The position numbers were made by a program, and so were the translations under genes. Below the pieces are notes generated by a model. That model was not told the origin of the DNA. It did no database searches and saw nothing but the letters and a program-made list of their open reading frames with translations. From Enterobacter phage phiKDA1, in sequence record NC_027980.1: a stretch of 43,804 nucleotides of DNA. One strand, written 5' to 3'. Below are positions 410-20,752 of the stretch, in pieces. Each line of letters opens with the position of its first letter. The first letter of the stretch is position 1.

Positions 410-423
410 ATAGAGGTTGCACG
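410..423 (+). promoter_or_regulatory. Conserved 14-mer ATAGAGGTTGCACG, copy 1 of 3; candidate phage-RNAP promoter core
   Basis: The same 14-mer recurs at 3520-3533 and 20739-20752, each time in an intergenic leader upstream of a gene block. Confidence 0.35.
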
Positions 424-511
424 TTAAGGTACAGAGTGCTAAGCTCAGTGTTAGCTAAGGGATACACCCAGCTAACACTATACATATAATATAGGAGATA
501 ATTGAGACACT

Positions 512-1225
512 ATGCCTGAGACAATAAAGAGGGCTAAGAGAACTGTTCAGGGAGTACGCTGCAATGGCTACCTGGTACATGGAGAGTTCTACCTGACTAA
601 GCAGGAGGCTTATACTGCTGCCGGGATAGATAAGCCAGTGCGTAAGGATAAGCTACCAGTATCAGCAGGTAACTGCATTGCGGTAGCTGATGCAGTACTA
701 AGGGAACCTGAGTTGCTACTATCCTGGGCTTATTCAGATACATTCACGAACGCGCACTACAGGGAGTTGAATATGTACCTGGATGGGCGTAGGGCTGGCT
801 ATGCCGGGCTTAAGACTAAGAGCCGTGCTGGTACAGTGCTGAACTGCGTAGAGGACGCTACAGCGTTCTGGAAGCAGCTTAAGCCCAGAGAGGATACTAA
901 GTACCGGGATAGAGCTTATAAGAATCCTACCTGGTGCGATGACAGGGGATGGGTAGAGCAGGAACCTCTGGATGCAGCAGCCTTAGCTATAGATGCTTAT
1001 ATGGATGCTGTACAGGCAGAGTGGGAGCAGCAGAACCAAGAGTATCTACAGGGCTTAAAGGCTCCGGTACTCAGTAAGGATGCGAGAGTATTGATACACA
1101 GAGGTTCAGAGGTAATTGAGTATATACCGGAAGTAGATACCGATACGGATAAGGTTACTAAGCCTAAGCGTAGGTGGACGCAGAGAGAGCTTTACAAGTG
1201 GGCTAAGCAGCATAACCTCTGCTAA
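512..1225 (+). CDS. Early hypothetical protein, 237 aa
   Basis: Long ORF preceded by the SD region ATAGGAGATAATTGAGAC. No recognisable domain. Confidence 0.75.
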   Translation: MPETIKRAKRTVQGVRCNGYLVHGEFYLTKQEAYTAAGIDKPVRKDKLPVSAGNCIAVADAVLREPELLLSWAYSDTFTNAHYRELNMYLDGRRAGYAGLKTKSRAGTVLNCVEDATAFWKQLKPREDTKYRDRAYKNPTWCDDRGWVEQEPLDAAALAIDAYMDAVQAEWEQQNQEYLQGLKAPVLSKDARVLIHRGSEVIEYIPEVDTDTDKVTKPKRRWTQRELYKWAKQHNLC

Positions 1226-1261
1226 CCCCTACAACACTATACAATAGGAGATAATTGAGAC

Positions 1262-1528
1262 ATGAACGCTGTAGCGTTAAAGAAAGGGTTACTGCATGTT
1301 TATGACTATATGCGGAAGCAAGCAGGTTCTTACCCGTCTTATGATACGTCCTTGCAGCTATGGGAAGGGTTGGGTAAGCCTAAGCGGATGCACTTGCTTG
1401 GGCTAGGGCTGGTTGAGTTCTATGTAGAGTTTAATCAGCTAAAGTATAGGGAGGTTTATCCGGATGCAGCAGAGTTTCTTGTTCGGTACTGTGTGCCTAG
1501 CGCCACTATGTATAATGCCCTAAAGTAA
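1262..1528 (+). CDS. Early hypothetical protein, 88 aa
   Basis: ORF preceded by a near-identical 29-bp leader/SD to that of gene 512. Confidence 0.7.
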   Translation: MNAVALKKGLLHVYDYMRKQAGSYPSYDTSLQLWEGLGKPKRMHLLGLGLVEFYVEFNQLKYREVYPDAAEFLVRYCVPSATMYNALK

Positions 1529-1602
1529 CCTATAGCTTACGTTGTATCAGGAAAGCGCTGCTAATGTGGTGCGGGTAGTGACATTAACTGAGGATGTTTA
1601 GG

Positions 1603-1770
1603 ATGCAGCAGAATAAGAACCCTACTCCAGATTACGAACTAGAGTCCGATTGGTTGACAAATCCTATATATTTCGACGAGGAGTGGATTATGGAAGGATT
1701 CTGTAGTACTTGCGGCAATAGCTGCTGCTACAGGGTTTGTCTTGCTTGTGGTGATTTTGACGCTAACTGA
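1603..1770 (+). CDS. Small Cys-rich protein, 55 aa (CSTCGNSCCYRVCLACG; zinc-ribbon-like)
   Basis: ATG with a GAGGA SD 8 nt upstream. Translated manually. Below the ORF-track cutoff. Confidence 0.35.
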   Translation: MQQNKNPTPDYELESDWLTNPIYFDEEWIMEGFCSTCGNSCCYRVCLACGDFDAN

Positions 1771-1814
1771 GGAGGTCCTATGGTTGGTTTCGGTGAAGGT
1801 TAAGTAATGCAGAG

Positions 1815-1847
1815 GGGAAGCACTAGCTGTACAGTGCTTCCCTTTTT
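1815..1847 (+). terminator. Rho-independent terminator (early terminator analog)
   Basis: Perfect 10-bp stem GGGAAGCACT/AGTGCTTCCC with an 8-nt loop, followed by TTTTT. Confidence 0.7.
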
Positions 1848-1877
1848 GCTTAATAGAGAATTATTTTAGAAAGTGTA

Positions 1878-1906
1878 TTGACATTCTGAACTGGGCCTAG
1901 TAGAGT
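1878..1906 (+). promoter_or_regulatory. Candidate sigma70 promoter: TTGACA, 17-bp spacer, TAGAGT
   Basis: Consensus -35 hexamer with a 17-bp spacer and a 4/6 -10, in the non-coding stretch just after the terminator. Confidence 0.35.
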
Positions 1907-2009
1907 TAACTACATCGAGAGGCAAGGAGCCGCCCGGTAACGGGGAGTAGCGCCAGGGCATACGAAACCTGGATAATCGATAAGAAGTAAGAAAGTTTAG
2001 AAATAAAGC

Positions 2010-2038
2010 TTGACAAGTACAGCAACACGAAGTAACTT
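2010..2038 (+). promoter_or_regulatory. Candidate sigma70 promoter: TTGACA, 17-bp spacer, TAACTT
   Basis: Consensus -35 with a weak -10, in the same non-coding region. Confidence 0.25.
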
Positions 2039-2075
2039 AGATAGCAAGCAAGGCGATTACTGAGTAAGTCGGGAG

Positions 2076-2303
2076 TTGGTACAGGGAGTACCTAGCAGCG
2101 ACTCTAAATATCTGCGAACTGGTCCGGTAAAGGGTATGGACCATGAAAGAAGATACCCTGAACGTTTCCGAGCGTCCCTGTCCTTACACAGGGGAATCGA
2201 TGAGAACCTACCCAATAACGGATGGTTCACTAAGAGAAGTTTCTTAGTTAAGTATCCTCATAGTGAGGGTGCAGAATTAAGACATTTACTAAGGAGTTTA
2301 TGA
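2076..2303 (+). CDS. Doubtful ORF, 75 aa, TTG start
   Basis: In the ORF track only. Lies in a region that also holds promoter-like elements. A strong SD for the next gene sits inside its 3' end. Confidence 0.25.
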   Translation: MVQGVPSSDSKYLRTGPVKGMDHERRYPERFRASLSLHRGIDENLPNNGWFTKRSFLVKYPHSEGAELRHLLRSL

Positions 2304-2467
2304 TGAAAGCACTGGCTGAAATGTATCGCCGGGAAGCGTTAGAACAAGCTGCATTATACCGAGCTAAAGCTGCTGCAACTGAGTATTCTGTAGCAGTAGC
2401 GGCGTGGGTATCTCTTGCCGAAAGGTCTGAGCGGGAAGCCTTTGTTTGGGAGTGTGCAGCCCGGTGA
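2300..2467 (+). CDS. Small hypothetical protein, 55 aa
   Basis: Perfect AAGGAG SD 5 nt upstream of ATGATG. Manual translation gives MMKALAEMYRREALEQ... Confidence 0.5.
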   Translation: MMKALAEMYRREALEQAALYRAKAAATEYSVAVAAWVSLAERSEREAFVWECAAR

Positions 2468-2501
2468 TGTATGGGTGCTTAACATTAGCGCTGAGGTATG
2501 T

Positions 2502-2738
2502 ATGGGATACTTGAAGATGTGCAAGAAGCGCGAGCAGTCAATCAAAGCGCTGGTAGCTGCGGCGCAGACTCCAGAAGGCTCTGAGGAGCGTAAGCGCCTT
2601 AAGAAGCTTCAGACCTTTGAAGCTACTGACCGGGCAAGGCCGCGGGGCTTCAGTACGAATGTACGCAGTATTGGCAATAAGACCGATTCTAAGATTAACA
2701 GCTACTACGCGGCAAAGAGCCGTACACCTAAATTCTAA
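2502..2738 (+). CDS. Small basic hypothetical protein, 78 aa (start chosen at the internal ATG with a GAGGT SD)
   Basis: Frame of track ORF 2415-2738. The upstream part overlaps the previous gene. Confidence 0.45.
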   Translation: MGYLKMCKKREQSIKALVAAAQTPEGSEERKRLKKLQTFEATDRARPRGFSTNVRSIGNKTDSKINSYYAAKSRTPKF

Positions 2739-2750
2739 GAGGAAACAATC

Positions 2751-2984
2751 ATGGCTAAGTACAACGGACACAAAAACTGGAATCACTGGAACGTATCTCT
2801 TTGGATTAATAACGACGAGGGGTTGTATGCTTTAGCTGTGGCGTGTGTAAGACGTTGCCGCAATCGTGACGTTGCAGCACAGCAGTTCTTAGACCACATG
2901 CATTTAGTTTGCCGTAAAACCAAAACCCCGGACGGCGCACCTTACTCTAAATCAGCAGTCCGCGCTGCTCTGGTAGGTATGTGA
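2751..2984 (+). CDS. Hypothetical protein, 77 aa
   Basis: ORF with SD AAGAGGAAAC 5 nt upstream. Confidence 0.6.
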   Translation: MAKYNGHKNWNHWNVSLWINNDEGLYALAVACVRRCRNRDVAAQQFLDHMHLVCRKTKTPDGAPYSKSAVRAALVGM

Positions 2985-3078
2985 TGGAGTGGTGCACGGA
3001 GTTCTACATCTTCTTCTTCCTGGTGCTAGTGCCAGCATGGTTCTGGCTAGTATCCCCAACCTCTAAAGGTGACAAGAA

Positions 3079-3318
3079 ATGATTCAGACAGTTACTATCG
3101 CGGTTAAGTCCGCTGTGATGCTACTGAGCAGCAACGTATCCGAACCTATCCCGTACTGCACCGTAGAAGTCACAGGGCAGCCCGGCTATGCGCTTTACGA
3201 GGACCCGGAAGGTGGTTGCAAGGGCTTGGGCAAGCGCCTGCTACAGAGCTTCCAGGGCGCTTATCCTGATAAGCCAGTGCTACTTATCGTTGACGGTAAG
3301 TCAGACCAGGAGATTTAG
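3079..3318 (+). CDS. Hypothetical protein, 79 aa
   Basis: ORF with SD AAAGGTGA. Confidence 0.55.
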   Translation: MIQTVTIAVKSAVMLLSSNVSEPIPYCTVEVTGQPGYALYEDPEGGCKGLGKRLLQSFQGAYPDKPVLLIVDGKSDQEI

Positions 3319-3319
3319 T

Positions 3320-3415
3320 ATGAACAATCAATCTGTGGAGTTCGAACGCAAGCGCGAAGCAGAGATGTTCGCGCTGTTCCTGATGCTTACCGGAGGCCGG
3401 AAATGTTCTGGCTAA
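3320..3415 (+). CDS. Tiny ORF, 31 aa
   Basis: ATG 2 nt after the previous stop, with a GGAG SD. Very short. Confidence 0.25.
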   Translation: MNNQSVEFERKREAEMFALFLMLTGGRKCSG

Positions 3416-3519
3416 CGTTCTTCCTGGTCATGGCAGCTATAGTGCCGCTGCCTTATATCTGCTAAGGCATAGCGCGGTTGATTCTGCGCTTGCTGGAGCT
3501 GTTCCGCTAACTAAACTGA

Positions 3520-3533
3520 ATAGAGGTTGCACG
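3520..3533 (+). promoter_or_regulatory. Conserved 14-mer ATAGAGGTTGCACG, copy 2 of 3
   Basis: Exact copy. Its AGAGG also serves as the SD for the small ORF starting at 3536. Confidence 0.35.
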
Positions 3534-3535
3534 AC

Positions 3536-3652
3536 ATGACTATCCAGAGCATCGCATTCCAGTACATGCAGTACCTACTCGCTAACGGCTACAGTGCCGA
3601 GTTAGCTTGGTCTAAAGCAATGCAATTAATTGAAGAAGGAAGCACAAAATGA
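3536..3652 (+). CDS. Small ORF, 38 aa
   Basis: ATG 3 nt after the conserved 14-mer. ATGA overlap with the next gene. Confidence 0.35.
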   Translation: MTIQSIAFQYMQYLLANGYSAELAWSKAMQLIEEGSTK

Positions 3653-3945
3653 CAGCATTAGAGGCAGCAATTAAACTACGGGAGTACGGGCCTTCGCGGT
3701 GCTTCAGTGGCATTTGCCGTAACTTGCACCATCTGGACGCGGACGCCTACGCCTTGTTTGATGTATATTTACGTGTATGCAGCTACAACTCTACATACCC
3801 CGTCGAGGTCAACTTGATGGGTATGTGCCCGGACTATGCAGAAGCATACTATGCAAGCTGCGGTGATAAGTGGGTCGGTGCTCACGGAGTAGCTCGTATG
3901 CAGTTACTGAACGATTTTATTAACTGGTTGGAGCCTAAGAAATGA
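3649..3945 (+). CDS. Hypothetical protein, 98 aa
   Basis: ORF with a GAAGGAAG SD. Confidence 0.65.
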   Translation: MTALEAAIKLREYGPSRCFSGICRNLHHLDADAYALFDVYLRVCSYNSTYPVEVNLMGMCPDYAEAYYASCGDKWVGAHGVARMQLLNDFINWLEPKK

Positions 3946-4121
3946 CAGCACAGAATCCAGAGGCTATCCTGATTAAGCAGGAGCAGCAAACTATCGAGGG
4001 CTTAGCGCGGGAGCACGCAGCTAAGCAGGGGCTTAAGCACTACTACCAGGTACGGGCACGCCAGCTAGGGCTGAGCCTGCGCACGTACTGCGAGCGCTTT
4101 AATGTTAAAGGGGTTGTATGA
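3942..4121 (+). CDS. Small hypothetical protein, 59 aa
   Basis: ATGA overlaps at both ends (3942-3945 and 4118-4121), suggesting translational coupling. Manual translation. Confidence 0.5.
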   Translation: MTAQNPEAILIKQEQQTIEGLAREHAAKQGLKHYYQVRARQLGLSLRTYCERFNVKGVV

Positions 4122-4558
4122 GCGTGAAACGTTATAATCCAGAATTGGAAAAGGACGGAGGTCTTGGAGTACCTTGTTTGACTATGCGTAGCAACTCTAT
4201 AGGGTCATGGGTAGATTACCATGAGTATGCCGCACTCGAAGCCAGATGCGCGGCTCTGGCTGCGGAGAATGCGGGGCTGAGGGATATCAACGCATGGTGC
4301 AAAACAGATGCATTCAAAAACATGTACCGCGAATTTAAAACAGCAGAATCACTTGGGTGTCCAGATGTTGATTGCATGCATGACGCAATGCTGACGGCAA
4401 TTATGCATGCACCTGAAACCCCAGCTACCGACGCTTTCTTGGCTGAAGTGCGGGCGCGGGGTGTGGAGATGCTGCGTAAACATCCAGCGATAAAACTTTG
4501 CTCTTTAACTCACGTATGTGATGAGTTCGCCGCCCAGCTTCGCAAAGGCGGTGCTTGA
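4118..4558 (+). CDS. Hypothetical protein, 146 aa
   Basis: ORF, ATGA-coupled to the previous gene. Confidence 0.7.
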   Translation: MSVKRYNPELEKDGGLGVPCLTMRSNSIGSWVDYHEYAALEARCAALAAENAGLRDINAWCKTDAFKNMYREFKTAESLGCPDVDCMHDAMLTAIMHAPETPATDAFLAEVRARGVEMLRKHPAIKLCSLTHVCDEFAAQLRKGGA

Positions 4559-4884
4559 TGCTTACTCCCGCTGAGACCGCTGCGCTGTACTGGAAAATGC
4601 TGGAGCAGCAAAGAAGCATGGGCCTGAAGTCCCTGCGGGATATCCCGGTGCAGCTACGGAAGCTAGCGCCTTTGCAGTGGAGAACAGGCTTTGAGTACCG
4701 GGAAGGGCTGCGTTTACTAGAAGGCTGGTACGCGTATAGCCCTGAGAGCGCACAGAAAGCCCTAGGAGAGCTTAAGTTCGATGTAGTAGGGCAACTACAT
4801 CGCTTAGGGTACAAAGGCGCTCGGAGAGCGTTCTACGAAGCTATACAAGACTATTACGATTGGAGGGTGAGTTATGCAAGTTAA
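4555..4884 (+). CDS. Hypothetical protein, 109 aa
   Basis: ORF, ATGA overlap with the previous gene. Confidence 0.7.
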   Translation: MMLTPAETAALYWKMLEQQRSMGLKSLRDIPVQLRKLAPLQWRTGFEYREGLRLLEGWYAYSPESAQKALGELKFDVVGQLHRLGYKGARRAFYEAIQDYYDWRVSYAS

Positions 4885-5116
4885 CGTTGAGACGTTGCAG
4901 GAGAAGATTAAATATCTGGAGCTATGTAAATTAACCCCGGTGCTGGGAATCTCGATTAACGAGGCCTATCAGCTAGAGGCTTACAAGATGCTGCTACAGC
5001 TCTTAAAGGATGGTGCGCGTGCAAATTGCCACTGCAATTGCCAGTTCTGGCACTACGATGAGTCTAGGGAGCAGTGTGTATGCAACAGTTGCTTAGGGGT
5101 AAAGTCCCATGACTAA
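4874..5116 (+). CDS. Hypothetical Cys-rich protein, 80 aa
   Basis: ORF with C-terminal CHCNC...CVCNSC motifs. Confidence 0.6.
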   Translation: MQVNVETLQEKIKYLELCKLTPVLGISINEAYQLEAYKMLLQLLKDGARANCHCNCQFWHYDESREQCVCNSCLGVKSHD

Positions 5117-5339
5117 GCAAACGCAGCACAACCTGGACATCCAGGTACTACCACTTAGAGGACCGCTGGGCAAGAGCATCTACAGCCTCAGGCAAGCTTG
5201 GGGGCCTGAGGATAACCCGAACGTAGACACAGTGTGGCTCACAAGCTATGATGTAGAAGCACTTTGGGAATTATATCAACGTGTACAAGCTCTGGCTGCT
5301 GCTGGCGCTGGCTGTTTCAACACTAAATATGAGGGGTAG
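5109..5339 (+). CDS. Hypothetical protein, 76 aa
   Basis: ORF overlapping the previous gene by 8 nt. Confidence 0.6.
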   Translation: MTKQTQHNLDIQVLPLRGPLGKSIYSLRQAWGPEDNPNVDTVWLTSYDVEALWELYQRVQALAAAGAGCFNTKYEG

Positions 5340-5342
5340 GGT

Positions 5343-5967: not shown

Positions 5968-5975
5968 GAGTAACT

Positions 5976-6761
5976 ATGACAGAAGCCCCCTGGCTACAAG
6001 CATGCAAGCGCCTGGCTGTAGGGCAAACTGCCAGGTTCAGATGCTGCGGTAGAACTCCTGCTGCAGTACTTTTTAATAAACCCGAGGCGTGGCAGCTCTA
6101 TTGCTTCAGATGTCATACGTCGCTCAGTGAGCGCAAACAATATGTATCCCTGGTGCAGCCAGAAGTGTTGCCTAGGGTGCTGCCTGCGCCTGCACAGCTA
6201 ATACAGATTCACCAGACGAGCGCTGAATTGCAGGCGCAGCTTTACGGATTCTTAGTATCAAAAGGGCTGATGCCAGAGATGGTTGGTGCAGTTTACTATT
6301 CAGAGCAACTAAAGAGGTTAGCATGGGATTTACAGAATGGAACGTACCTGGCGAGGGCGCTGCACAGTTATCAAGCTCCCAAATGGGTTATGCTGGGGCA
6401 GCCCGCACAGTATGCAGCAGCCCGGCCTTTGCAGCACCCTACGGAACTAGTGGTGTTAACAGAGGATTGGCTGAGCGCTTTAAAGATTCAATGGGTCTCG
6501 AAGAAGTATTCTTCCGTACCTGTAACGGCGGTTTCGTTGCTGGGGACGCGGTTGTCATTGGCTCTCAAGGCTTCCTTGATTCAGATGAATAAGCCAGTGC
6601 TGCTGATGCTGGACGGGGACAGCGCCGGGTACGCCGGGCGGGACACTATACAGCGCACCTTGAAACCGTTCTTGCAGACGCGTAGTTACACAATCGACGG
6701 ATTGGACCCGAAGGACATGACCTGCCAACAAATACTGGAGGGTTTAAATTGGATTACTTAA
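5976..6761 (+). CDS. DNA primase (zinc-finger plus TOPRIM)
   Basis: N-terminal CxxC...CxxC zinc-binding motif (CKRLAVGQTARFRCCGR ... CFRCH) and the TOPRIM motif LMLDGDSAG. AGGAG SD. Lies immediately upstream of the helicase. Confidence 0.8.
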   Translation: MTEAPWLQACKRLAVGQTARFRCCGRTPAAVLFNKPEAWQLYCFRCHTSLSERKQYVSLVQPEVLPRVLPAPAQLIQIHQTSAELQAQLYGFLVSKGLMPEMVGAVYYSEQLKRLAWDLQNGTYLARALHSYQAPKWVMLGQPAQYAAARPLQHPTELVVLTEDWLSALKIQWVSKKYSSVPVTAVSLLGTRLSLALKASLIQMNKPVLLMLDGDSAGYAGRDTIQRTLKPFLQTRSYTIDGLDPKDMTCQQILEGLNWIT

Positions 6762-11604: not shown

Positions 11605-12654
11605 TTGACATTGCAGCAGAACTATGAAACTGCTGCAATAGAAGTATCACGAATAGGACAACACAGGAGAATCCCCTTGAGCAAAGTATCTCTAATTAAG
11701 CTATTCCCTAAAGAAGTACACTTAGATATCCTTAGTAAGTACAAAGATAATACTGAGGCTGCTAACGTATACACAGAGTACACCGATGGGTTTAACCCTG
11801 TGTCCCGCCAGTTAGTACGGTACTGGCGCAGCATCTTCATTGACAACGGCGGTAGCAAGAGCAAGGCTAACAACGCCCTGATGCAAGCCCGTAAAGTAAT
11901 CCAACCGTCCCCTACGGACGACCTGGGCAGTACTTACGTACCGGAAGTGTGCCAGCGCATCCTTGTGGTGGGGGACCTGCACGAGCCTTACGTGCACCCA
12001 GACGCTTACGACTTCCTGAAGTCTGTGCGGGATGAGTACTGCCCCGATATTGTTGTACAGATTGGTGACGAGACTGACGGGCACGCTATCAGCTTCCACG
12101 ACAGTAGCCCGGAGCTGGATAGTGCAGGCGTAGAGCTTGAGAAAGCTAAGGTTGGTTTAGAGAAGCTGCACAGCATCTTCCCGAATATGCTACTGTGCGA
12201 CTCTAACCATGGCTCTCTTATCTACCGCAGAGCTAAAGCACACGGGCTACCTGTTCAGTTCATCAAGAAGTACCGAGACATCCTATTCCCAGAGCATGGT
12301 GCCCCTGGTTGGAGCTGGGGCGATGCCTGGGACTTGGAAACAGCACTTGGTACTGTGCGCTTCCAACACCAAGTAGCCGGGGACCTGTTGCTTAACGCTG
12401 CGCATGAGCGCAAGTCTATGGTCATAGGGCACTTTCACGGTAAGTTAGATATTCAGTACGCAGCTAGCAGCGCAGCCCTGTACTTTGGAGCACACTGTGG
12501 TTGCTTGATTGACAACAAAAGCCTGGCGTTTGCTTATGGTAAGTTGTCTCGTAGCAAGCCGATTCTGGGATGCATGGTAATTACTGAGGGCTGCCCACAA
12601 ATCGTACCCATGCTCCTCGATGAAGATGGACGTTGGGTATCACGTAAGAAGTAA
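11605..12654 (+). CDS. Calcineurin-like metallophosphoesterase
   Basis: Motifs VVGDLHEPY and QIGDETDGH (the GDxH...GDxxD signature). There is no in-frame ATG near the 5' end. The likely start is TTG 11677, with an AGGAGA SD 6 nt upstream. The track uses TTG 11605. Confidence 0.75.
   Translation: MTLQQNYETAAIEVSRIGQHRRIPLSKVSLIKLFPKEVHLDILSKYKDNTEAANVYTEYTDGFNPVSRQLVRYWRSIFIDNGGSKSKANNALMQARKVIQPSPTDDLGSTYVPEVCQRILVVGDLHEPYVHPDAYDFLKSVRDEYCPDIVVQIGDETDGHAISFHDSSPELDSAGVELEKAKVGLEKLHSIFPNMLLCDSNHGSLIYRRAKAHGLPVQFIKKYRDILFPEHGAPGWSWGDAWDLETALGTVRFQHQVAGDLLLNAAHERKSMVIGHFHGKLDIQYAASSAALYFGAHCGCLIDNKSLAFAYGKLSRSKPILGCMVITEGCPQIVPMLLDEDGRWVSRKK
11610..11639 (+). other. Perfect 10-bp stem hairpin (ATTGCAGCAG / CTGCTGCAAT) in the leader of the phosphoesterase gene
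   Basis: Inverted repeat with a 10-nt loop. A TTGACA hexamer lies at 11605-11610. No T-run follows. Confidence 0.5.
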
Positions 12655-12896: not shown

Positions 12897-13772
12897 ATGA
12901 CTATTCTGAACAACATTGCTGCACTGGTAAACGAAGCCGTAGAAACTCAGGGCGTAGACCACAGCATTACGCAGCAGGGCGGCGGTAACTTCGAGGATGT
13001 ACTCCTTCCACGCGGCACTTACTATGGGCGTATGGTTGAGTACATCGAGCTGGGTAAGAAGATTCCAATGAACGCAGGTAAGCCTACTGGTAAGCCAGCA
13101 GTGCTGAACGTCCGTACAGGCTTTATCATCTACACCCCGGACGGTGGTATCAAGCGCATTAACCCGTTCCCTATGGCGGTGTCCAGCTTCGAGAAAGCTA
13201 AGTTCAAGCAACTGTTCGACAAGATGAACGTAGACGGTACACTGAAGCACTTAGCGCAGGCGCTGGGTAAACCTATGGCGTTTGATATTGAGCAGTACAC
13301 CACCAAGGCAGGCAAGACCTTGAACGTTATTAACTTCGCAGGTACACGCCCGCTGCCTAAGTTCGACCCGAACACGGGTGCGCCTATCGTACTGCCTGAG
13401 CTGGATGAGCAGTTCCTGCGCCTGTTCCTGTGGAACAACCCAACCAAAGAAACCTGGGAGAGCCTGTACATTGAGAAGAACAACTTCATCCAAGAGGACA
13501 TCCTCGCTGCTGTGGACTTCGAAGGCTCCGCGCTTCAGCAATTACTTATGGGCGGTGTTCCATCGCCAGAAGCTCTTGCACCTGCTGCACCGAGTGCACA
13601 AGCGCCTGCGGGACAGTCGGGTGCAGGCGCTGTTGATACTGCCGCAGCACCAGTGGGAGTACAAACACCGCAGGCTCCTGCGGCTCCAGTGGCTCCTGCT
13701 GCGCCTATTGCGCCAGCAGCCCCTGTAGCTCCGCAAGCTCCGGTAGCGCCTATCGCTCCTCCGGTAGCTTGA
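12897..13772 (+). CDS. Hypothetical protein with a Pro/Ala-rich C-terminal repeat tail of about 70 aa
   Basis: 291-aa ORF with strongly biased codons typical of highly expressed genes. Its C-terminus is low-complexity PA-rich sequence. Confidence 0.75.
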   Translation: MTILNNIAALVNEAVETQGVDHSITQQGGGNFEDVLLPRGTYYGRMVEYIELGKKIPMNAGKPTGKPAVLNVRTGFIIYTPDGGIKRINPFPMAVSSFEKAKFKQLFDKMNVDGTLKHLAQALGKPMAFDIEQYTTKAGKTLNVINFAGTRPLPKFDPNTGAPIVLPELDEQFLRLFLWNNPTKETWESLYIEKNNFIQEDILAAVDFEGSALQQLLMGGVPSPEALAPAAPSAQAPAGQSGAGAVDTAAAPVGVQTPQAPAAPVAPAAPIAPAAPVAPQAPVAPIAPPVA

Positions 13773-13838
13773 ACGCCAGCACAGCTAGACTTTGAAACCT
13801 ACCCGATGCAATAGGCCCCTAGTGGGCCTCTAAGGATT

Positions 13839-15659: not shown

Positions 15660-15822
15660 AGCCTGGGAGTTATTCTATGCAGACGAATTCATTAAGCTGG
15701 AACTACTTATGCTTGATATGGCAGAGCAGTACCCAGAGCAGCATCGAGAGCTTACTAAAGCTATGGCTGCTGCGATTCACGAGCAGCATGACCTGGATTG
15801 CTTAGCGGAGATTGGGTTATGA
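15628..15822 (+). CDS. Hypothetical protein, 64 aa
   Basis: ORF overlapping the end of the exonuclease gene. Weak SD. Confidence 0.4.
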   Translation: MKKQLKQMRLRAWELFYADEFIKLELLMLDMAEQYPEQHRELTKAMAAAIHEQHDLDCLAEIGL

Positions 15823-16223
15823 GTACCTTCACCAAAGAACAGTTGATTGAAGAAGTTAACTACAACCTGGAGCATTGCTTCTGCTCGGAGAAAACAAAGC
15901 GGCTTATGGAAATCGCGCTGGTATCGCTCAAAGCGGAGGGGTTAGGGCAAAAGCCCGTTGGTTTATTCGCGAAACGTAACGGGACTTGGCTTGAATTATG
16001 CCAAGGTGACACATTCGAACACCCCGATGGTGTACCGCTCTACACCGCCCCGCTAGCTCCGGTATCTGATTCGCTTCTGTCTGAGCTTTTAGCGATAGCG
16101 AAGAAGGCGGCTGATGCAGCAGACGAATGCGCACATGCGGAGTGGAGCGATGACTCCATGGAGCATTCAACTGCTATAGCTGATTGGGAGCGCCGCGCCG
16201 CCATGCTTCAGGAGGCTAAATGA
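15819..16223 (+). CDS. Hypothetical protein, 134 aa
   Basis: ATGA coupling at both ends. GGAG SD 8 nt upstream. Confidence 0.6.
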   Translation: MSTFTKEQLIEEVNYNLEHCFCSEKTKRLMEIALVSLKAEGLGQKPVGLFAKRNGTWLELCQGDTFEHPDGVPLYTAPLAPVSDSLLSELLAIAKKAADAADECAHAEWSDDSMEHSTAIADWERRAAMLQEAK

Positions 16224-16648
16224 CTCTACGCAGGATTACGCGCGCTCAAATCCGCAGCGTAGCTATGAAACTAGCGAAGGAGCAGGGCGGGGCGTGCCTG
16301 CTCTGCGGAGGCGCTCTGGACTTCTCAATCAAAGGGGTTAAAGGTGACTCTGTTGTGGTTGACCATTGCCATATTACTGGGCGTATTCGTGGAGCTTTGC
16401 ACCGCTCTTGTAATGGGGGCGAGGGTAAGGTGGCGTCTGCTGCTGGACGGTGGATTGTTGGGAGTATGCAGTCTAGCGCTGCTATCGCTGCTGCTCTACG
16501 CCGGGTGGCTGACTATCTAGACCGGGAACCAACGCAGCTGCTTTACTACACTTGGAAGACCGAGGAAGAAGCTAAGGCAGCACAGAACGCTAAGCGCCGC
16601 AGGGTGCGAGCACAACGTAAGGCTAGAGAGGTGATTAAGAATGGATAA
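16220..16648 (+). CDS. Endonuclease VII-like Holliday-junction resolvase
   Basis: VVDHCHITGRIRGALHRSCN zinc/HNH-like motif as in T4 endonuclease VII. 142 aa. Lies next to the exonuclease. Confidence 0.7.
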   Translation: MTLRRITRAQIRSVAMKLAKEQGGACLLCGGALDFSIKGVKGDSVVVDHCHITGRIRGALHRSCNGGEGKVASAAGRWIVGSMQSSAAIAAALRRVADYLDREPTQLLYYTWKTEEEAKAAQNAKRRRVRAQRKAREVIKNG

Positions 16649-16943
16649 CAGTGTATGTGCTACATGTTTAGGTACTGGGTGCGAATACTGCAACCCCATC
16701 GCTGGCCGCGCAAAAGCAGCAGCCCCAGACCCAGTGAACCAGCCCCAGCACTACACCTCTGGGGGGATTGAGTGCATCGACGCTATCCGGGCGAGCATGA
16801 CCAAAGAGGCCTTCTGCGGCTATCTCAAAGGCTGTGCACAGAAATACTTCTGGCGCTATGAGAAGAAGGTTAACCCTGTAGAGGATATCAAGAAGGCTCG
16901 CTGGTACTCTGAGCGCTTGATTAAGGAGCTTGAGGATGCCTAA
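16641..16943 (+). CDS. DUF3310-family protein
   Basis: Motif ECIDAIRASMTKEAF.GYLKG.AQKYFWRY..K...EDIKKARWYSERLIKE is typical of the DUF3310 proteins of T7-like phages. Confidence 0.6.
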   Translation: MDNSVCATCLGTGCEYCNPIAGRAKAAAPDPVNQPQHYTSGGIECIDAIRASMTKEAFCGYLKGCAQKYFWRYEKKVNPVEDIKKARWYSERLIKELEDA

Positions 16944-17103
16944 GATTGCCGCAGTGATTGAGCTGGATACGGATAATCTGGACGATGCAGAGGAGTTCAT
17001 GCAGAACCTTCTGCACGTCGGATACCTTGAGGGTGTCGTTACTAGGGACGTGGACTCCTACTTGATTGAGCACTCAGAGAGTGCCGGGGAGACTTTGCAT
17101 TAA
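16936..17103 (+). CDS. Small acidic hypothetical protein, 55 aa
   Basis: AAGGAG SD 7 nt upstream. Manual translation. Confidence 0.35.
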   Translation: MPKIAAVIELDTDNLDDAEEFMQNLLHVGYLEGVVTRDVDSYLIEHSESAGETLH

Positions 17104-17255
17104 GGACGAACAGGAACCCCTGGCACCTAGTGCATGGTGCCGAGAACGCTATGAAAAAGCGCTGGAGCGCGGTGACGCTGCATCTGCACAAGCTTATTTG
17201 AGTATGCACGAGCTTTGGGTAAGACGCGAACAAGAAACTAAGAAAGGGGAATAGC

Positions 17256-17534
17256 ATGACAGGTAAATGCGGAGCAGATTGTACTAACCGTTGCAGCATC
17301 GGGGCTTGCCCTAGAGATAGTGGCTTGATTGTTAAATCTGACCAGGCAAAGATGTTACACGGTGGGGAAGTGGCGGTGGGCACCATTCCCCCATTTAATT
17401 ATGAGTTCGATGGGTTCATCCTGGACTTTGATGAAGATGCCGTAGCGAAGCGTAATGCTGAGCGTGAGCAGGCCCAAACAGAGAGCGCCTGCAAGCTCAA
17501 CGATGACGGTACGTGCGACGGCTGCACTATTTAA
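17256..17534 (+). CDS. Cys-rich hypothetical protein, 92 aa
   Basis: AAAGGGG SD. Cysteines cluster at both termini. Confidence 0.6.
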   Translation: MTGKCGADCTNRCSIGACPRDSGLIVKSDQAKMLHGGEVAVGTIPPFNYEFDGFILDFDEDAVAKRNAEREQAQTESACKLNDDGTCDGCTI

Positions 17535-17546
17535 TCAGGAGGGTGT

Positions 17547-18227
17547 ATGCAGAAAGTTTTATGGTCTATGTTTGACGGTTCAGGTTTAGCCGCCCAACCT
17601 TTCGCAGAGGCGGGGTGGTTATGCTATTGCTTTAATGCGGATGCCGCCGACCACGGACCGTATGCGTCTGTACAGGTGCGCCACCCTAACATTACCTACG
17701 TAAACGCATGGGTGGACTCCAGCTTTGATTACCCAGTTAAACCGGATATGATACTGGCATTTCCGCCGTGTACTGATTTAGCAGTCAGCGGAGCGGCACA
17801 TTTTGCGAGTAAAGCTGCTAAGAACCCCACCTTTCAAGAGGAGGCTGTAGCGACGGCAAAAGTAGCAGCAGCACTTGGGGATAAGTACAACGTACCTTAT
17901 ATGATTGAGAACCCTATTAGCGTACTATCAAGTAAGTGGCGTAAGCCGGATTACAGTTTTCACCCGTATGAATATGGCGGGTATTTACCAGAGGATGATG
18001 CACATCCAAACTTCCCTGATTACATTAATCCGAGAGACTCTTATCCTAAGAAGACCTGCCTGTGGACAGGGAATGGGTTCATAATGCCTGAGCGTGCGCC
18101 TGTCTCTGTTGCAGAAGGATATAGTACACAACACAGTAAGCTGGGTGGTAAATCTGCCCGCACTAAATTGATTCGGTCTTTGACCCCGCGTGGCTTTGCT
18201 AAAGCTGTTTGTTTAGCAAACCGATAA
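17547..18227 (+). CDS. Compact DNA (cytosine-5) methyltransferase-like protein, 226 aa
   Basis: Four C5-MTase-like motifs in the correct order: I (MFDGSGL), IV (AFPPCTDLAVSG, the PC dipeptide), VI (MIENPISVL) and a C-terminal motif-X-like RSLTPRGFAKAV. There is no clear QxRxR motif and no large target-recognition domain. The ORF itself is secure. The functional call is tentative. Confidence 0.5.
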   Translation: MQKVLWSMFDGSGLAAQPFAEAGWLCYCFNADAADHGPYASVQVRHPNITYVNAWVDSSFDYPVKPDMILAFPPCTDLAVSGAAHFASKAAKNPTFQEEAVATAKVAAALGDKYNVPYMIENPISVLSSKWRKPDYSFHPYEYGGYLPEDDAHPNFPDYINPRDSYPKKTCLWTGNGFIMPERAPVSVAEGYSTQHSKLGGKSARTKLIRSLTPRGFAKAVCLANR

Positions 18228-18270
18228 TAGTACCCTCAGAAACGTCCAGATTAACGTAGAGGATAGTGAA

Positions 18271-20712
18271 TTGAAAGAGACCTTAGAAGAACGCACAGAG
18301 CGACAGCTCCAGCTAGAGCAGCAGTACCGTACGCGCAGCCTCGAGCGCAGCAAGAGCCTGGTGCAGAAAGCCCTGGACTCTGGTAGCCTCAGCACCCTGC
18401 CGCCAGTGCAACGCATGATTGCGGCTGCATACGACACGGTATGCGCAGGCATCAACAACACTAAGCAGGAGAAGACTGCTGGTGTAGGCGCTAAGTACCG
18501 CGCGTTCCTGCGCTTAATCCCTACAGACGTACTGGCTGTACTGGCGCTGACGAAGTGCTTCGATTCGCTATTCTCTAACGTAGGCACGAACAGTGCCAGC
18601 TCAGCACAGGCTGTGCTGTCCGGCTTAGGCCGTCAGGTTCAGGCTGAGCTGCTGGCTGTGCAGCTTCAGGCTGTAGCCCCGGCGTACATGAACCGAGTGC
18701 ATGAGTACCTGAAGGAACGTAACACTACAAGCCCATCGCATATCCTGAAGACTCTGCGTGCCTCTGCTGAGAACGTGCACTACCAGCACGAGCCTTGGTC
18801 GAACTCGCAGTGTATCTCCGTAGGGAAGCTCTTGATGCAGGCAGTGTGGGATACAGGGCTGTTCGTATGGAGCAAGCGCGACCGCACGCAGTTGCAGTAC
18901 CTAACCCCAGCTCCGGCGCTGGAGCAGGTCCTGTCTGAGCTGGTAGAGCACGCTGATACAGTGCAGCTGAAGCCACCGATGCTTATCCCGCCGCAGCCGC
19001 ACGATACTATGTTCTCTGGCGGATACCTTACGGACATTGATAGACGCGGTACTTACAGCAACTCCCAGATTCAGCGCAGCATGAAGCGCGAAGTAGCTGA
19101 GGCGTTCAAGCAAGCACCGGAGCTTCGGAGCGCTCTGAACCGTGCTCAGGAGGTTCCTTACCGCATTAACAAGACCATGCTGAGGCTGGTGCAGCAGGCG
19201 CGCGCCTTGGGCGTAAGCACAGGTATGCCCAGCAGCAACCCAGCGCCTAAACCAGAGTGGCGCCTGGATGGTGTACCAAAGGAAGAGTACACTGAGCGTG
19301 AGCTTGAGGAGTTCCAGGAGTGGAAGATGCATATGCGCCAGTGGTATGCTGATGAGCGTACTCGCGTAGGGCAGCTGCGTGCTCTGGTTACAACCGTAAG
19401 TATGTGCGAGGAGTTTAAAGATGAAACCGAATTGTACTTCCCGACTTGTGTTGACTGGCGATACCGTCTGTACTTCAAGTCCAGCCTGCACCCCCAAGGT
19501 TCTGATTTGCAGAAGTCTCTACTCTGTTTCGGACGAGCCAAGCCCTTGGGAGCCAGAGGATTGTTTTGGCTCAAGGTACACGTCGCTACTTGCTTTGGTT
19601 ATGACAAAGCCTTATTCGAAGCCCGCGCAGCTTGGGTTGATGATAATCTTGAACTACTTAGAGCCACAGTTGCAGCGCCTTTTGATGCTGAGGCTTTTAA
19701 ATCTGCGGACAGCCCGTGGTGTTTCCTCGCTGCCTGCATCGACCTTGTTAACGCAATCGAATCAGGTAGGCCGGAGCAATATGCATCTGCAATCCCGGTG
19801 GCTATGGACGCCACCAACTCAGGTTCTCAGCACTACAGCGCAATGCTCCGCGACCCAATCGGCGGGCGCTTAACGAACCTGTTTTGGGAAGGTAACGCGG
19901 AGAAAGCGGACATGTACATGGATGTGAAGGAGCGCACGGACTCTAAGGTAATCATGGACCTCACGGACCCTGAGCATGTAGTACAAGCTATGTACTGGCG
20001 AGAGAACCCAATTACTAGGAGTATGTCTAAGAAGCCCTGTATGACCTATGTATATTCTGCGACTGTACGTAGCTGCTCTGAGTACATCCTCTTGGGTGCT
20101 AAAGATGAGGGATATGAGCCTACTGATGAGTACAGCCTGTTTAAGCTCGCAGGGTACTTAGCTCCGCGTATGCGCGCTGCTGTAGAAGAGGCTAACCCTG
20201 CGGCTGCGGAGGCTATGCGCTTTGCTCAGCAGATTACTGGGCGTGTTCCGACTAGACGGCATTTGCAGTGGAAGACACCGCTGGGTGGCTTGGTCATTAA
20301 CCGCTACACAGAGTCTGATGAGTGCAGGGTCAAAGTCCAGAGTATGAACCTGACGTACCTGCTCAGTTACAACCGAAACTACGAGCAGAATAATCGCCGT
20401 AAGGCTAAGTCTGGTATAGCTCCGAACTTCGTGCACTCCCTGGATAGTACGCACCTGATGATGGTCCTGAACGCCTTCGACGGTGCTATCCTGCCTATCC
20501 ACGACTCACTGGCTACGCACGCCTGCGATGTCGATGCAATGCACAAAGTAATCCGCGAACAGTTCCTGAAGCTGTACACCGAGCACGACCCGTTGCAGAC
20601 ACTGGCTGACGCAGCAGTGGAGTGCGGGGCTGACCTGGAAGGTCTAGAGATGCCGCAGAAGGGTACTTTGGACTTAACGCAAGTACTTGAATCGCCCTTC
20701 TTTTTCTGCTAG
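18271..20712 (+). CDS. Single-subunit DNA-dependent RNA polymerase (T7-like)
   Basis: Motif A DATNSGSQHYSAML and motif C PIHDSLATHA. 813 aa. TTG start with a GAGGA SD. Lies immediately before the structural genes, the phiKMV-type position. Confidence 0.9.
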   Translation: MKETLEERTERQLQLEQQYRTRSLERSKSLVQKALDSGSLSTLPPVQRMIAAAYDTVCAGINNTKQEKTAGVGAKYRAFLRLIPTDVLAVLALTKCFDSLFSNVGTNSASSAQAVLSGLGRQVQAELLAVQLQAVAPAYMNRVHEYLKERNTTSPSHILKTLRASAENVHYQHEPWSNSQCISVGKLLMQAVWDTGLFVWSKRDRTQLQYLTPAPALEQVLSELVEHADTVQLKPPMLIPPQPHDTMFSGGYLTDIDRRGTYSNSQIQRSMKREVAEAFKQAPELRSALNRAQEVPYRINKTMLRLVQQARALGVSTGMPSSNPAPKPEWRLDGVPKEEYTERELEEFQEWKMHMRQWYADERTRVGQLRALVTTVSMCEEFKDETELYFPTCVDWRYRLYFKSSLHPQGSDLQKSLLCFGRAKPLGARGLFWLKVHVATCFGYDKALFEARAAWVDDNLELLRATVAAPFDAEAFKSADSPWCFLAACIDLVNAIESGRPEQYASAIPVAMDATNSGSQHYSAMLRDPIGGRLTNLFWEGNAEKADMYMDVKERTDSKVIMDLTDPEHVVQAMYWRENPITRSMSKKPCMTYVYSATVRSCSEYILLGAKDEGYEPTDEYSLFKLAGYLAPRMRAAVEEANPAAAEAMRFAQQITGRVPTRRHLQWKTPLGGLVINRYTESDECRVKVQSMNLTYLLSYNRNYEQNNRRKAKSGIAPNFVHSLDSTHLMMVLNAFDGAILPIHDSLATHACDVDAMHKVIREQFLKLYTEHDPLQTLADAAVECGADLEGLEMPQKGTLDLTQVLESPFFFC

Positions 20713-20738
20713 CAGTTTCATATGAAAGGGTTTTAGCG

Positions 20739-20752
20739 ATAGAGGTTGCACG
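20739..20752 (+). promoter_or_regulatory. Conserved 14-mer ATAGAGGTTGCACG, copy 3 of 3, in the RNAP-to-late-gene intergenic region
   Basis: Exact copy about 360 bp upstream of the first late gene. Confidence 0.35.

What the first reader, a model, noticed from the sequence alone, without database searches (positions are those of the whole stretch)
410..20752. Exact 14-mer ATAGAGGTTGCACG three times, at positions mimicking T7 phage-promoter placement
Copies lie at 410-423, 3520-3533 and 20739-20752. All are intergenic and all point the same way. The first is at the left end before gene 1, a position like T7 phi-OL. The second is in the early and middle gene region. The third is in the roughly 390-bp gap between the RNA polymerase gene and the first late genes. 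A specific 14-mer occurring three times by chance in 44 kb is essentially impossible. The motif has no good sigma70 -10 at the right spacing, so a phage-RNAP promoter core or another phage-specific regulatory site is the best guess. In copy 2 the AGAGG doubles as the SD of a small ORF.
Basis: partly seen in the sequence, partly recalled or inferred. Interest (0 to 1): 0.6.

Follow-up and report, generated by a model that had tools for sequence, protein, structure and literature searches.

The report
Promoters for the phage's own RNA polymerase
The thrice-repeated 14-mer is almost certainly the recognition part of the promoter used by this phage's own T7-type RNA polymerase. It is an ordinary but previously undescribed member of a promoter class already proven in the related Klebsiella phage KP34.

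Summary
ATAGAGGTTGCACG occurs exactly three times, all on the + strand, at 410, 3520 and 20739.

The window is a complete 43.8-kb Koutsourovirus-like podophage with 267-bp terminal repeats. It has the KP34/phiKMV gene layout and a T7-type single-subunit RNA polymerase gene at 18271-20712.

In seven relatives of about 90% identity, the core AGAGGTTGCACG, four A/T-rich bases and a G are conserved at the same three places, while the flanks are diverged or unrelated. Aligned without gaps at the predicted start site, the element matches the KP34 strong promoter T(A/G)ATGTTACAGGAGTA at 9 of 16 positions. That promoter was proven by in vitro transcription and 5'-RACE. KP34's copies also sit at the left end and directly after its RNAP gene.

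Predicted starts are G428, G3538 and G20757. Three weaker variant sites (357, 11638, 21061) share TAGA-N5-CASG-WATA-G and are conserved in relatives.

Host sigma-70 promoter, RNA structure, a pure ribosome-binding site and chance all fit worse.

Novelty is a new member of a known kind and interest is modest. A side observation may be more novel: a roughly 320-nt, apparently structured non-coding segment sits between copy 3 and a second promoter-like site.

The parts
410..428 (+). Promoter copy 1: ATAGAGGTTGCACG TTAA G, taken as -18..+1. The predicted start is G428. It lies 143 nt after the left terminal repeat and 84 nt before gene 1 (ATG 512).
   Evidence: Exact match. The core plus TTAAG is identical in L001, L002, L004, L036 and L093 while the flanks diverge. 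L003's record starts inside it. It is positioned like the KP34 promoter at 475-490.
3520..3538 (+). Promoter copy 2: ATAGAGGTTGCACG ACAT G. The predicted start is G3538, which is the G of the ATG of ORF 3536-3652. AGAGG serves as that ORF's Shine-Dalgarno on read-through transcripts.
   Evidence: Exact match. It is conserved in L001-L004, L036 (two tandem copies) and L093, although different ORFs follow it. Buco has an equivalent at 6005-6023 that also overlaps a start codon.
20739..20757 (+). Promoter copy 3: ATAGAGGTTGCACG TATA G. The predicted start is G20757. It begins 27 nt after the RNAP stop codon.
   Evidence: Exact match. In L001, L003 and L121 the same core plus TATAG lies directly upstream of the first late gene, with unrelated upstream flanks. 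KP34's major promoter is 5 nt after its RNAP gene, with the 5'-RACE start at 22213.
357..375 (+). Variant promoter-like site P1: GTAGATTCCACAGG TATA G. It lies 53 nt upstream of copy 1.
   Evidence: It matches the degenerate pattern. It is conserved as an island in L001, L002, L004, L036 and L093. Its function is inferred only.
11638..11656 (+). Variant promoter-like site P4: ATAGAAGTATCACG AATA G. It lies before the metallophosphoesterase-like gene and directly after a 10-bp hairpin.
   Evidence: Found, and conserved in L001-L004. Homologous sites exist upstream of the same gene region in Buco (13093, ATAGAATTCCACGGTATAG) and KP34 (12983, TAATGTGATACGAGTAG, 14 of 17 to the KP34 strong promoter). 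The hairpin has z = -4.0.
21061..21079 (+). Variant promoter-like site P6: GTAGAAACCACACG TATA G. It lies 20 nt upstream of the first late gene's ATG.
   Evidence: Found. The identical element is the only promoter-like site before the late genes in L004. The downstream TATAGAACAAGGGGCAAGAGAAGCATG is shared with relatives' canonical copy 3.
18271..20712 (+). Gene for the T7-type single-subunit RNA polymerase that is proposed to read these promoters.
   Evidence: Pfam RNA_pol 2.8e-88 and RPOL_N 6e-14. T7 RNAP structures match at 1e-63 over residues 9-812. The protein is 64% identical to KP34 RNAP.
20757..21078 (+). A roughly 320-nt non-coding leader between copy 3 and P6, which would be the first RNA made from copy 3. 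It contains a 76-nt extended hairpin at 20955-21030.
   Evidence: It is absent from L001, L003 and L004. It is present at 96-97% identity in L122 and L129. The hairpin folds at -35 kcal/mol with z = -6.3. Substitutions mostly keep pairing. There is no Rfam hit.
3536..3652 (+). A 38-aa ORF whose ribosome-binding site and start codon lie inside promoter copy 2.
   Evidence: The equivalent CDS is annotated in L004 (41508-41624). A different ORF starts at the same ATG in L002 and L003.
21099..21524 (+). First late-region gene (141 aa), the first coding target of copy 3 and P6.
   Evidence: ORF list. It is syntenic with the first gene after the RNAP gene in all relatives.
25960..26005 (+). Strong intrinsic terminator after the capsid gene block. 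It probably attenuates late transcripts that start at copy 3 or P6.
   Evidence: A 15-bp stem with 9 GC pairs followed by a T-run. It is syntenic with KP34's annotated terminator at 26623-26660.

Best explanation
The 14-mer is the upstream, polymerase-binding part of the promoter recognised by the phage's own T7-type single-subunit RNA polymerase (gene at 18271-20712).

The working unit is about 16 bp plus the start base: AGAGGTTGCACG (-16..-5), four A/T-rich bases (-4..-1: TTAA, ACAT or TATA), then G at +1. By analogy with T7 RNAP, the enzyme binds the duplex -16..-5, melts the A/T-rich -4..-1 and starts at G. That predicts 5' ends at 428, 3538 and 20757.

- Copy 3 starts late (virion and lysis) transcription just after the RNAP gene.
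- Copy 1 restarts transcription of the whole genome from the left end.
- Copy 2 reinforces transcription of the early/middle genes up to and including the RNAP gene, which would give positive feedback.

Three variant sites (357, 11638, 21061) are probably weaker promoters of the same enzyme.

Shown here: the sequences, their orientation and placement, their conservation, and their similarity to a validated promoter. Inferred: binding, start sites, relative strengths and physiological roles.
For: 1. The genome encodes a T7-type ssRNAP, and all genes and all motif copies are on the + strand.

2. Lu et al. 2019 (PMC6834552) showed by in vitro transcription and 5'-RACE that the KP34 RNAP strong promoter is T(A/G)ATGTTACAGGAGTA (-16..-1). 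Its copies lie at 475-490 (left end), 22197-22212 (5 nt after the RNAP gene) and 33721-33736. Aligned without gaps at +1, AGAGGTTGCACGTATA shares 9 of 16 bases with it (GTTnCAnG..TA). Copies 1 and 3 occupy the same two positions.

3. Buco is an intermediate. GTTACACG-GTAT-R occurs four times with the same 4-nt spacing to the purine, at equivalent places.

4. Positive control: the same 'longest k-mer present three times' test recovers the validated KP34 promoter in KP34 and the 14-mer here.

5. In relatives, the 12-mer plus 4 nt plus G is an island of identity in diverged or unrelated flanks at all three sites. Conservation begins at -16, matching KP34's 16-nt requirement.

6. Copy 3 in relatives sits directly before the conserved 5' leader of the first late gene.

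7. LUZ19 (phiKMV-like) also has few phage promoters, two of them directly after its RNAP gene (PMC10914365). This parallels copy 3 plus P6.

8. In KP34 the promoter also contains an SD-like AGGAG, and +1 is 3 nt before the next gene's ATG. This is the same promoter and ribosome-binding-site overlap as copy 2.
Against: - There is no transcript or biochemical data for this phage or its genus.
- Identity to the KP34 promoter is only 9 of 16, so the homology rests on register and position as much as on sequence.
- At copy 2 the predicted start is the G of an ATG, so the ORF that follows could not be translated from that transcript. That is odd for a promoter and would fit a translation signal.
- The late-gene copy is not canonical in L002, L004 and L123, so late transcription does not strictly need the exact 12-mer.
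- L004's RNAP differs at 6 specificity-loop residues yet keeps the same motif, so there is no clean polymerase-promoter covariation within the genus.
- The degenerate pattern that yields P1, P4 and P6 was built after seeing them.
Confidence: 0.88

Rival explanations
1. The motif is a conserved translation-initiation cassette: a Shine-Dalgarno AGAGG with a fixed 9-nt spacer and an ATG. It would mark the start of exchangeable small early genes and would not be a promoter.
For: At every copy-2-type site the motif is followed by NNATG. Annotated CDSs start there in L002, L003 and L004. L036 has two such sites in tandem, each before a different ORF. Buco 6005 does the same.
Against: Copies 1 and 3 have no start codon at that spacing (TTAAGG, TATAGA) in any relative. 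The first late gene has its own leader and ribosome-binding site 20 nt further on. An SD does not need 12 invariant bases. The validated KP34 promoter likewise contains an SD-like AGGAG just before an ATG, so the two uses are compatible.
Confidence: 0.03
2. The motif is the binding or cleavage site of some other sequence-specific protein. Candidates are a homing endonuclease target, a recombination hotspot at mosaic boundaries, or a replication or packaging protein site.
For: Flanks on one or both sides of the motif are unrelated between close relatives. The copy-3 junction carries different insertions in relatives: an HNH-motif ORF in L002 and L123, other ORFs in L003 and L121, and the 320-nt segment here. 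Copy 1 lies among short GATAGC-type repeats near the genome end.
Against: The window has the motif without any endonuclease gene nearby. The motif survives on both sides of insertions rather than being disrupted. Strict co-orientation with transcription, the A/T-rich block plus G, and the in-register similarity to a validated promoter are not expected for such sites. Short conserved promoters acting as recombination junctions are a known consequence of being promoters (own knowledge of T7-group phages).
Confidence: 0.05
3. The motif is a host sigma-70 promoter element or part of a conserved RNA structure.
For: None specific. A stable hairpin lies 25-60 nt upstream of copy 2 (z = -2.5).
Against: No sigma-70-like hexamer pair overlaps any copy. 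The best candidates are at 1757-1784 and 1878-1906. Folds of 81 nt around each copy are not better than shuffles (z = -0.46, -0.20, -1.16) and share no structure. There is no Rfam hit.
Confidence: 0.02
4. The three copies are a chance repetition with no function.
For: One of 100 Markov-simulated genomes reached a 14-mer present three times. Near matches with 3 mismatches are not enriched (7 against 3.85 expected).
Against: The same core is conserved at the same three positions in seven relatives, within diverged flanks. All copies are co-oriented and lie outside or at the edge of coding sequence.
Confidence: 0.005

Closest known systems
Klebsiella phage KP34 RNAP strong promoter, T(A/G)ATGTTACAGGAGTA (Lu et al. 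2019, PMC6834552)
   Same: - It belongs to the same subfamily (Slopekvirinae) and has the same genome layout.
- The RNAPs are 64% identical.
- It has three near-identical co-oriented copies.
- One copy lies about 150-260 nt after the left terminal repeat and one lies within 30 nt of the RNAP stop codon.
- It is a 16-nt unit followed by G at +1.
- It shares GTTnCAnG at -12..-5 and TA at -2/-1, giving 9 of 16 identical.
- An SD-like purine run sits inside the promoter, next to a start codon.
   Different: - Seven of 16 positions differ (AGAGG..G.C.TA against TAATG..A.G.AG).
- KP34's third copy is inside the internal virion protein gene. The window has none there, and its GGTTGCAGG at 33142 is not at the homologous position.
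- The window's third copy is instead in the early region at 3520.
- KP34's promoter is experimentally proven, whereas this one is not.
LUZ19/phiKMV phage-specific promoters, GgtTATGTCACacACAnnGG (Putzeys et al. 2024, PMC10914365)
   Same: It is a phiKMV-type genome with only about four phage-RNAP promoters. [quoted passage not shown]
   Different: The sequence is unrelated. One LUZ19 promoter is antisense near the left end, while no conserved minus-strand copy exists here.
T7 phiOL and T7/SP6 class III promoters (own knowledge, not tested with a tool)
   Same: The architecture is the same: a roughly 12-nt specificity region, TATA at -4..-1 and G at +1. T7 phiOL is likewise a left-end promoter upstream of the early genes. 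Copy 3 (AGGTTGCACGTATAGAAG) resembles the SP6 promoter (AGGTGACACTATAGAAG) apart from one extra base.
   Different: T7 and SP6 carry 12-18 promoters and place the RNAP gene early. Here the RNAP gene ends the middle region and only 3-6 sites exist. The sequence is not a member of the T7 or SP6 consensus.

Membership tests
KP34-like (Slopekvirinae) single-subunit RNAP promoter | A cognate T7-type single-subunit RNAP is encoded in the same genome. | tested here: met
   Pfam RNA_pol and RPOL_N, and a full-length match to T7 RNAP structures. The protein is 64% identical to KP34 RNAP.
KP34-like (Slopekvirinae) single-subunit RNAP promoter | There are several near-identical copies, co-oriented with the genes and lying between genes. 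| tested here: met
   There are three exact copies on the + strand. Copies 1 and 3 are intergenic and copy 2 is at a gene start.
KP34-like (Slopekvirinae) single-subunit RNAP promoter | One copy lies immediately downstream of the RNAP gene and ahead of the late genes, and one lies near the left end after the terminal repeat. | tested here: met
   Copy 3 starts 27 nt after the RNAP stop. Copy 1 is 143 nt after the 267-bp terminal repeat. The KP34 positions are 22197 and 475.
KP34-like (Slopekvirinae) single-subunit RNAP promoter | The sequence is similar to the validated promoter, in register with +1. | tested here: inconclusive
   Nine of 16 bases are identical without gaps, with a shared GTTnCAnG core. 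Buco is an intermediate (GTTACACG). This is convincing together with position but too short for a statistical homology claim.
KP34-like (Slopekvirinae) single-subunit RNAP promoter | The element is conserved in relatives that carry the same RNAP specificity loop. | tested here: met
   The core is identical in L001-L004, L036/L121, L093/L123 and L122. The specificity-loop region is identical to the window's in L001, L002 and L121-L123, differs at one residue in L003 and at six in L004.
KP34-like (Slopekvirinae) single-subunit RNAP promoter | The cognate RNAP initiates transcription at the predicted +1, in vitro or in infected cells. | not testable with these tools
   No transcript data were found for this genus in the held literature.
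T7/SP6-group promoter consensus | The sequence matches the 23-bp T7 or SP6 consensus. | not tested
   Only an architectural resemblance was noted, and the comparison with SP6 from memory needs a 1-nt gap. It works like these promoters but is not filed as a member.
Host sigma-70 promoter | There are -35 and -10 hexamers with 16-18 nt spacing. | tested here: not met
   No consensus hit overlaps any copy.

The most novel reading that the evidence does not exclude
The polymerase may use a two-tier promoter set: three identical strong sites plus three variants that share only TAGA-N5-CASG-TATA-G.

Separately, the late promoter may have been duplicated around an inserted, promoter-flanked segment of about 320 nt that encodes a structured non-coding RNA. 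That would be a 'moron' made of RNA rather than protein. Which of its two flanking promoters is canonical flips between near-identical relatives: distal in the window, proximal in L122, neither in L129.
Probability: 0.2. Interest if true: 0.55.

Novelty: new member of a known kind. Interest (0 to 1): 0.3.

Why it matters
It gives a concrete, testable promoter (AGAGGTTGCACG-NNWW-G) for the RNA polymerase of Koutsourovirus phages. No promoter for these phages appears in the literature I could search.

Such polymerase-promoter pairs are useful in two ways:
- as orthogonal expression parts and for in vitro RNA synthesis, as KP34 RNAP already is;
- as data points for rules that link specificity-loop residues to promoter bases.

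It also lets the transcription units of this phage group be annotated. Otherwise it confirms the expected T7-supergroup logic rather than changing it.

Tried and rejected
- **Rfam.** There was no hit on the whole window at gathering thresholds or on 20700-21120 at E up to 5.
- **RNA folds around each copy.** None was better than shuffles.
- **Sigma-70 scan.** Nothing overlapped the copies.
- **Internal promoter as in KP34 and Buco.** GGTTGCAGG at window 33142 (inside gene 32531-36241) lies at alignment column 222. The KP34 and Buco sites lie at columns 294 and 262. The window site encodes a conserved peptide, so I treated it as coding conservation.
- **IMG/VR scan with AGAGGTTGCACGNNAWG.** This pattern wrongly excluded the TATAG (copy 3) form. 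It still found two relatives, and the other roughly 109 hits are single chance matches.
- **IMG/VR search with the gene 1 protein.** It found nothing.
- **Scan for TAGATGATTGACG, the variant in L122 and L129.** It found only the known contig plus chance hits.
- **Other-genus promoter classes.** I tried to define 'S.Kent-type' and 'P64441-type' classes from their post-RNAP sequences. Each sequence is single-copy in its genome, so no class could be defined.
- **Minus-strand near-match in the terminal repeat.** GTAGAGGCCCCAGG at 109 and 43646 is not conserved in relatives and starts with C, so I dismissed it.
- **Literature.** Searches for the motif string and for the relatives' names returned nothing relevant. 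The PhageProm supplement was not available.
- **Shuffle control for the 320-nt RNA structure.** It is uninformative with three sequences.
Full report
**Observation**

ATAGAGGTTGCACG occurs exactly at 410-423, 3520-3533 and 20739-20752, all on the + strand. The next best matches have 3 mismatches and are no more frequent than in shuffles (7 against 3.85). It is the longest k-mer present at least three times on one strand of the genome.

On count alone this is unusual but not impossible. In 100 third-order Markov simulations the longest triple was 11 nt in 74 cases, 12 in 20, 13 in 5 and 14 in 1.

The RNAP ORF ends at 20712 and the first late ORF starts at 21099, so the gap is 386 bp as stated. 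Copy 2 is not strictly intergenic. AGAGG and the ATG at 3536 form the start of a 38-aa ORF.

**Context**

- The window is a complete linear phage genome with an exact 267-bp direct terminal repeat, 1-267 = 43538-43804.
- All sizeable ORFs are on the + strand.
- ORF 18271-20712 is a T7-type single-subunit RNA polymerase: Pfam RNA_pol 2.8e-88, RPOL_N 6e-14, and T7 RNAP structures at 1e-63 over the full length.
- The closest public genomes, at about 90% nucleotide identity, are four Koutsourovirus or Koutsourovirus-like phages (Autographiviridae, Slopekvirinae): Enterobacter phages SDFMU_Pec, Entb_48 and SDFMU_EhYP, and Salmonella phage KKP 3828.
- More distant relatives are Buco, KP34 and other Slopekvirinae, with RNAP identity of 64-73%.
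- The RNAP gene lies at the end of the DNA-metabolism region, directly before the virion genes. This is the phiKMV/KP34 arrangement.

**Conservation**

In the four phage genomes and three IMG/VR contigs, the 12-mer AGAGGTTGCACG recurs at the syntenic places.

Alignments anchored on the motif show an island of identity covering the 12-mer, the next four bases and a G. The flanks are diverged at copy 1. They are unrelated on the downstream side at copy 2, where two different ORFs follow the same ATG. They are entirely unrelated upstream at copy 3.

The two bases before the 12-mer vary (AT, AC, GG, TT, CT). After the motif come TTAA-G at copy 1, ACAT/GTAT/ATAT-G at copy 2 and TATA-G at copy 3. 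One IMG/VR relative (L036) has two copy-2-type sites 174 nt apart, each in front of a different small ORF.

**Link to a proven promoter**

Lu et al. 2019 (PMC6834552) purified KP34 RNAP and used in vitro transcription and 5'-RACE. They found that its strong promoter is the 16-mer T(A/G)ATGTTACAGGAGTA, with the start at the next base (22213). A 14-nt version was much weaker.

The three genomic copies lie at 475-490, at 22197-22212 (5 nt after the RNAP gene) and at 33721-33736. These coordinates check out on the KP34 record.

If the G that follows the four A/T-rich bases is taken as +1 here, AGAGGTTGCACGTATA aligns without gaps to TAATGTTACAGGAGTA at 9 of 16 positions. They share GTTnCAnG at -12..-5 and TA at -2/-1. 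Conservation among relatives begins exactly at -16.

Buco bridges the two. GTTACACG-GTAT-(A/G) or GTTACAGG-GTAT-A occurs four times, with the same spacing and comparable positions.

As a positive control, the 'longest triple k-mer' procedure recovers exactly the validated promoter in KP34.

LUZ19, a phiKMV-type phage mapped by ONT-cappable-seq, also has only four phage-specific promoters, two of them directly downstream of its RNAP gene (PMC10914365).

**Proposed mechanism**

The element is the promoter for the phage's own RNAP. By analogy with T7 (own knowledge), bases -16..-5 are bound as duplex, -4..-1 are melted, and synthesis starts at G. The predicted starts are 428, 3538 and 20757.

- Copy 3 launches late transcription. 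A strong intrinsic terminator after the capsid block (25960-25995), syntenic with KP34's, probably attenuates it.
- Copy 1 mirrors KP34's left-end copy and T7 phiOL.
- Copy 2 would add phage-RNAP transcription of the early/middle genes, including the RNAP gene.

At copy 2 the predicted +1 is the G of the ATG. The 38-aa ORF would therefore be translated only from read-through transcripts, using AGAGG as its Shine-Dalgarno, and not from the transcript that starts there.

KP34 shows the same overlap. Its promoter contains AGGAG, and +1 is 3 nt before the ATG of gp38. Buco's 6005 site overlaps a start codon in the same way.

All of this paragraph is inference.

**Additional sites**

The pattern RTAGA-N5-CASG-NNWW-R has six matches in the window, all on the + strand, against 0.12 expected. 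The pattern was written after seeing the sites, so this statistic is only descriptive. Independent support comes from relatives.

- **P1 (357-375)** is a conserved island 53 nt upstream of copy 1 in five relatives.
- **P4 (11638-11656)** is conserved in all four phage genomes. It has homologues before the same gene region in Buco (ATAGAATTCCACGGTATAG) and in KP34 (TAATGTGATACGAGTAG, 14 of 17 to KP34's own strong promoter). The 5' part of KP34's and the window's P4 follows each genome's own canonical promoter.
- **P6 (21061-21079)** is the only promoter-like element before the late genes in SDFMU_EhYP.

I regard these as probable weaker promoters.

**The copy 3 junction**

The space between the RNAP gene and the first late gene is an insertion hotspot. 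Relatives carry there an ORF with an HNH-like motif (L002, L123), other small ORFs (L003, L121) or nothing (L001, L004).

The window carries about 320 nt (20757-21078), bracketed by copy 3 and P6, which both end in CACGTATAGAA. The same segment, 96-97% identical, is in one IMG/VR contig (L122) and one metagenome contig (L129), and nowhere else that I searched.

The differences between these sequences concentrate in the two promoter recognition regions. The window has the canonical 12-mer distally and a variant proximally. L122 has the reverse. L129 has TAGATGATTGACG at both.

L122's RNAP specificity-loop region is identical to the window's, so the variants do not reflect a changed polymerase there.

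The segment has no convincing ORF. It contains a 76-nt hairpin (z = -6.3). Most substitutions keep pairing on the + strand: one compensatory pair and six wobble-compatible changes, with two pairs broken. With three near-identical sequences the controls cannot distinguish this from chance.

**Rival explanations**

- **A pure translation signal** fits copy 2 but not copies 1 and 3.
- **A homing, recombination or other protein-binding site** fits the mosaic flanks. It does not explain the orientation, the A/T-rich block plus G, or the in-register match to a proven promoter.
- **A sigma-70 promoter and an RNA structure** were tested and not supported.
- **Chance** is excluded by conservation.

**Novelty and limits**

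The promoter class is known (KP34 experimentally; 467 'KP34-like' promoters predicted in 135 genomes by PhageProm, PMC11880802). I found no description of this sequence or of Koutsourovirus promoters in the searchable literature. I could not see the PhageProm tables.

There are no transcript or biochemical data for this phage. Function, start sites and strengths therefore remain predictions.

Noticed in passing
window 20757-21078 (also L122 4981-5323 and L129 about 1300-1625, minus strand): A roughly 320-nt non-coding segment is inserted between promoter copy 3 and a second promoter-like site. It is found in only two other public contigs. It has a 76-nt hairpin at 20955-21030 (z = -6.3), and its substitutions mostly preserve pairing on the + strand. 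There is no Rfam match. It could be a structured RNA or an RNase III-processed leader.
   Followed up: partly
window 8317, 12847, 17178 (+ strand); KP34 9721, 14988; Buco 14321: A second repeated motif, CTGCATCTGCAC(G), occurs three times. The 12847 copy is intergenic (CTGCATCTGCACGTAAATAATACATTAATCACACGAGAGAG). It is conserved at the DNA level across genera, before the same gene in KP34 and Buco. The 8317 copy and its surroundings are about 43 of 45 identical to KP34, far above the genome average. The function is unknown, and it is unlikely to be the RNAP promoter because KP34's promoter differs.
   Followed up: partly
window 3461-3499 and 11610-11639: Stable conserved hairpins lie just upstream of copy 2 (-21.9 kcal/mol, z = -2.5) and directly abutting P4 (10-bp stem, z = -4.0). 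Neither has a T-run. The first resembles the hairpin-like motif that Eriksson et al. 2015 proposed as a KP34-group 'phage promoter'. They may be processing or termination signals placed before promoters.
   Followed up: partly
L002 about 22463-23110, L123, L003 21338-21586, L121: The junction between the RNAP gene and the first late gene is an insertion hotspot in relatives. One ORF has an HNH-like motif and there are other small ORFs. The late promoter there is canonical in some relatives (L001, L003, L121, L122 proximal). It is diverged in others (L002 ATTTGGGTTGTAGG; L004 has a decayed copy plus the P6-type).
   Followed up: partly
L036 (reverse complement) 8857 and 9031: One IMG/VR relative has two copy-2-type promoter sites 174 nt apart, each immediately before the ATG of a different small ORF. 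This suggests that small early genes are exchanged or duplicated together with the promoter and ribosome-binding-site block.
   Followed up: no
KP34 (L007) 12983-12999; Buco (L006) 13093-13111: KP34 has a fourth site, TAATGTGATACGAGTAG, which matches its validated strong promoter at 14 of 17 positions. It lies upstream of gp22/gp23. It is not among the promoters named in the passages of Lu et al. 2019 that I read. Buco has the homologous ATAGAATTCCACGGTATAG.
   Followed up: no
window 1-267 and 43538-43804; 140-400: There are exact 267-bp direct terminal repeats. Between the left repeat and copy 1 lies a run of short GGATAGC/GATAGC-type repeats.
   Followed up: partly
window 480-508 and 1233-1259: A near-identical block, ACACTATACA..ATAGGAGATAATTGAGAC, precedes both gene 1 (ATG 512) and gene 2 (ATG 1262). 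It is a duplicated translation-initiation region that includes a perfect TATAAT at 485-490. The best sigma-70-like sites lie only downstream of these genes (1757-1784, 1878-1906).
   Followed up: no
window 20664-20683: The 3' end of the RNAP gene holds ACTTTGGACTTAACGCAAGT. This is the counterpart (15 of 20 identical) of the KP34 'weak promoter' ACTTTGGACATCCGTCAAGT reported inside the KP34 RNAP gene. It is coding sequence, so the similarity may only reflect protein conservation.
   Followed up: no
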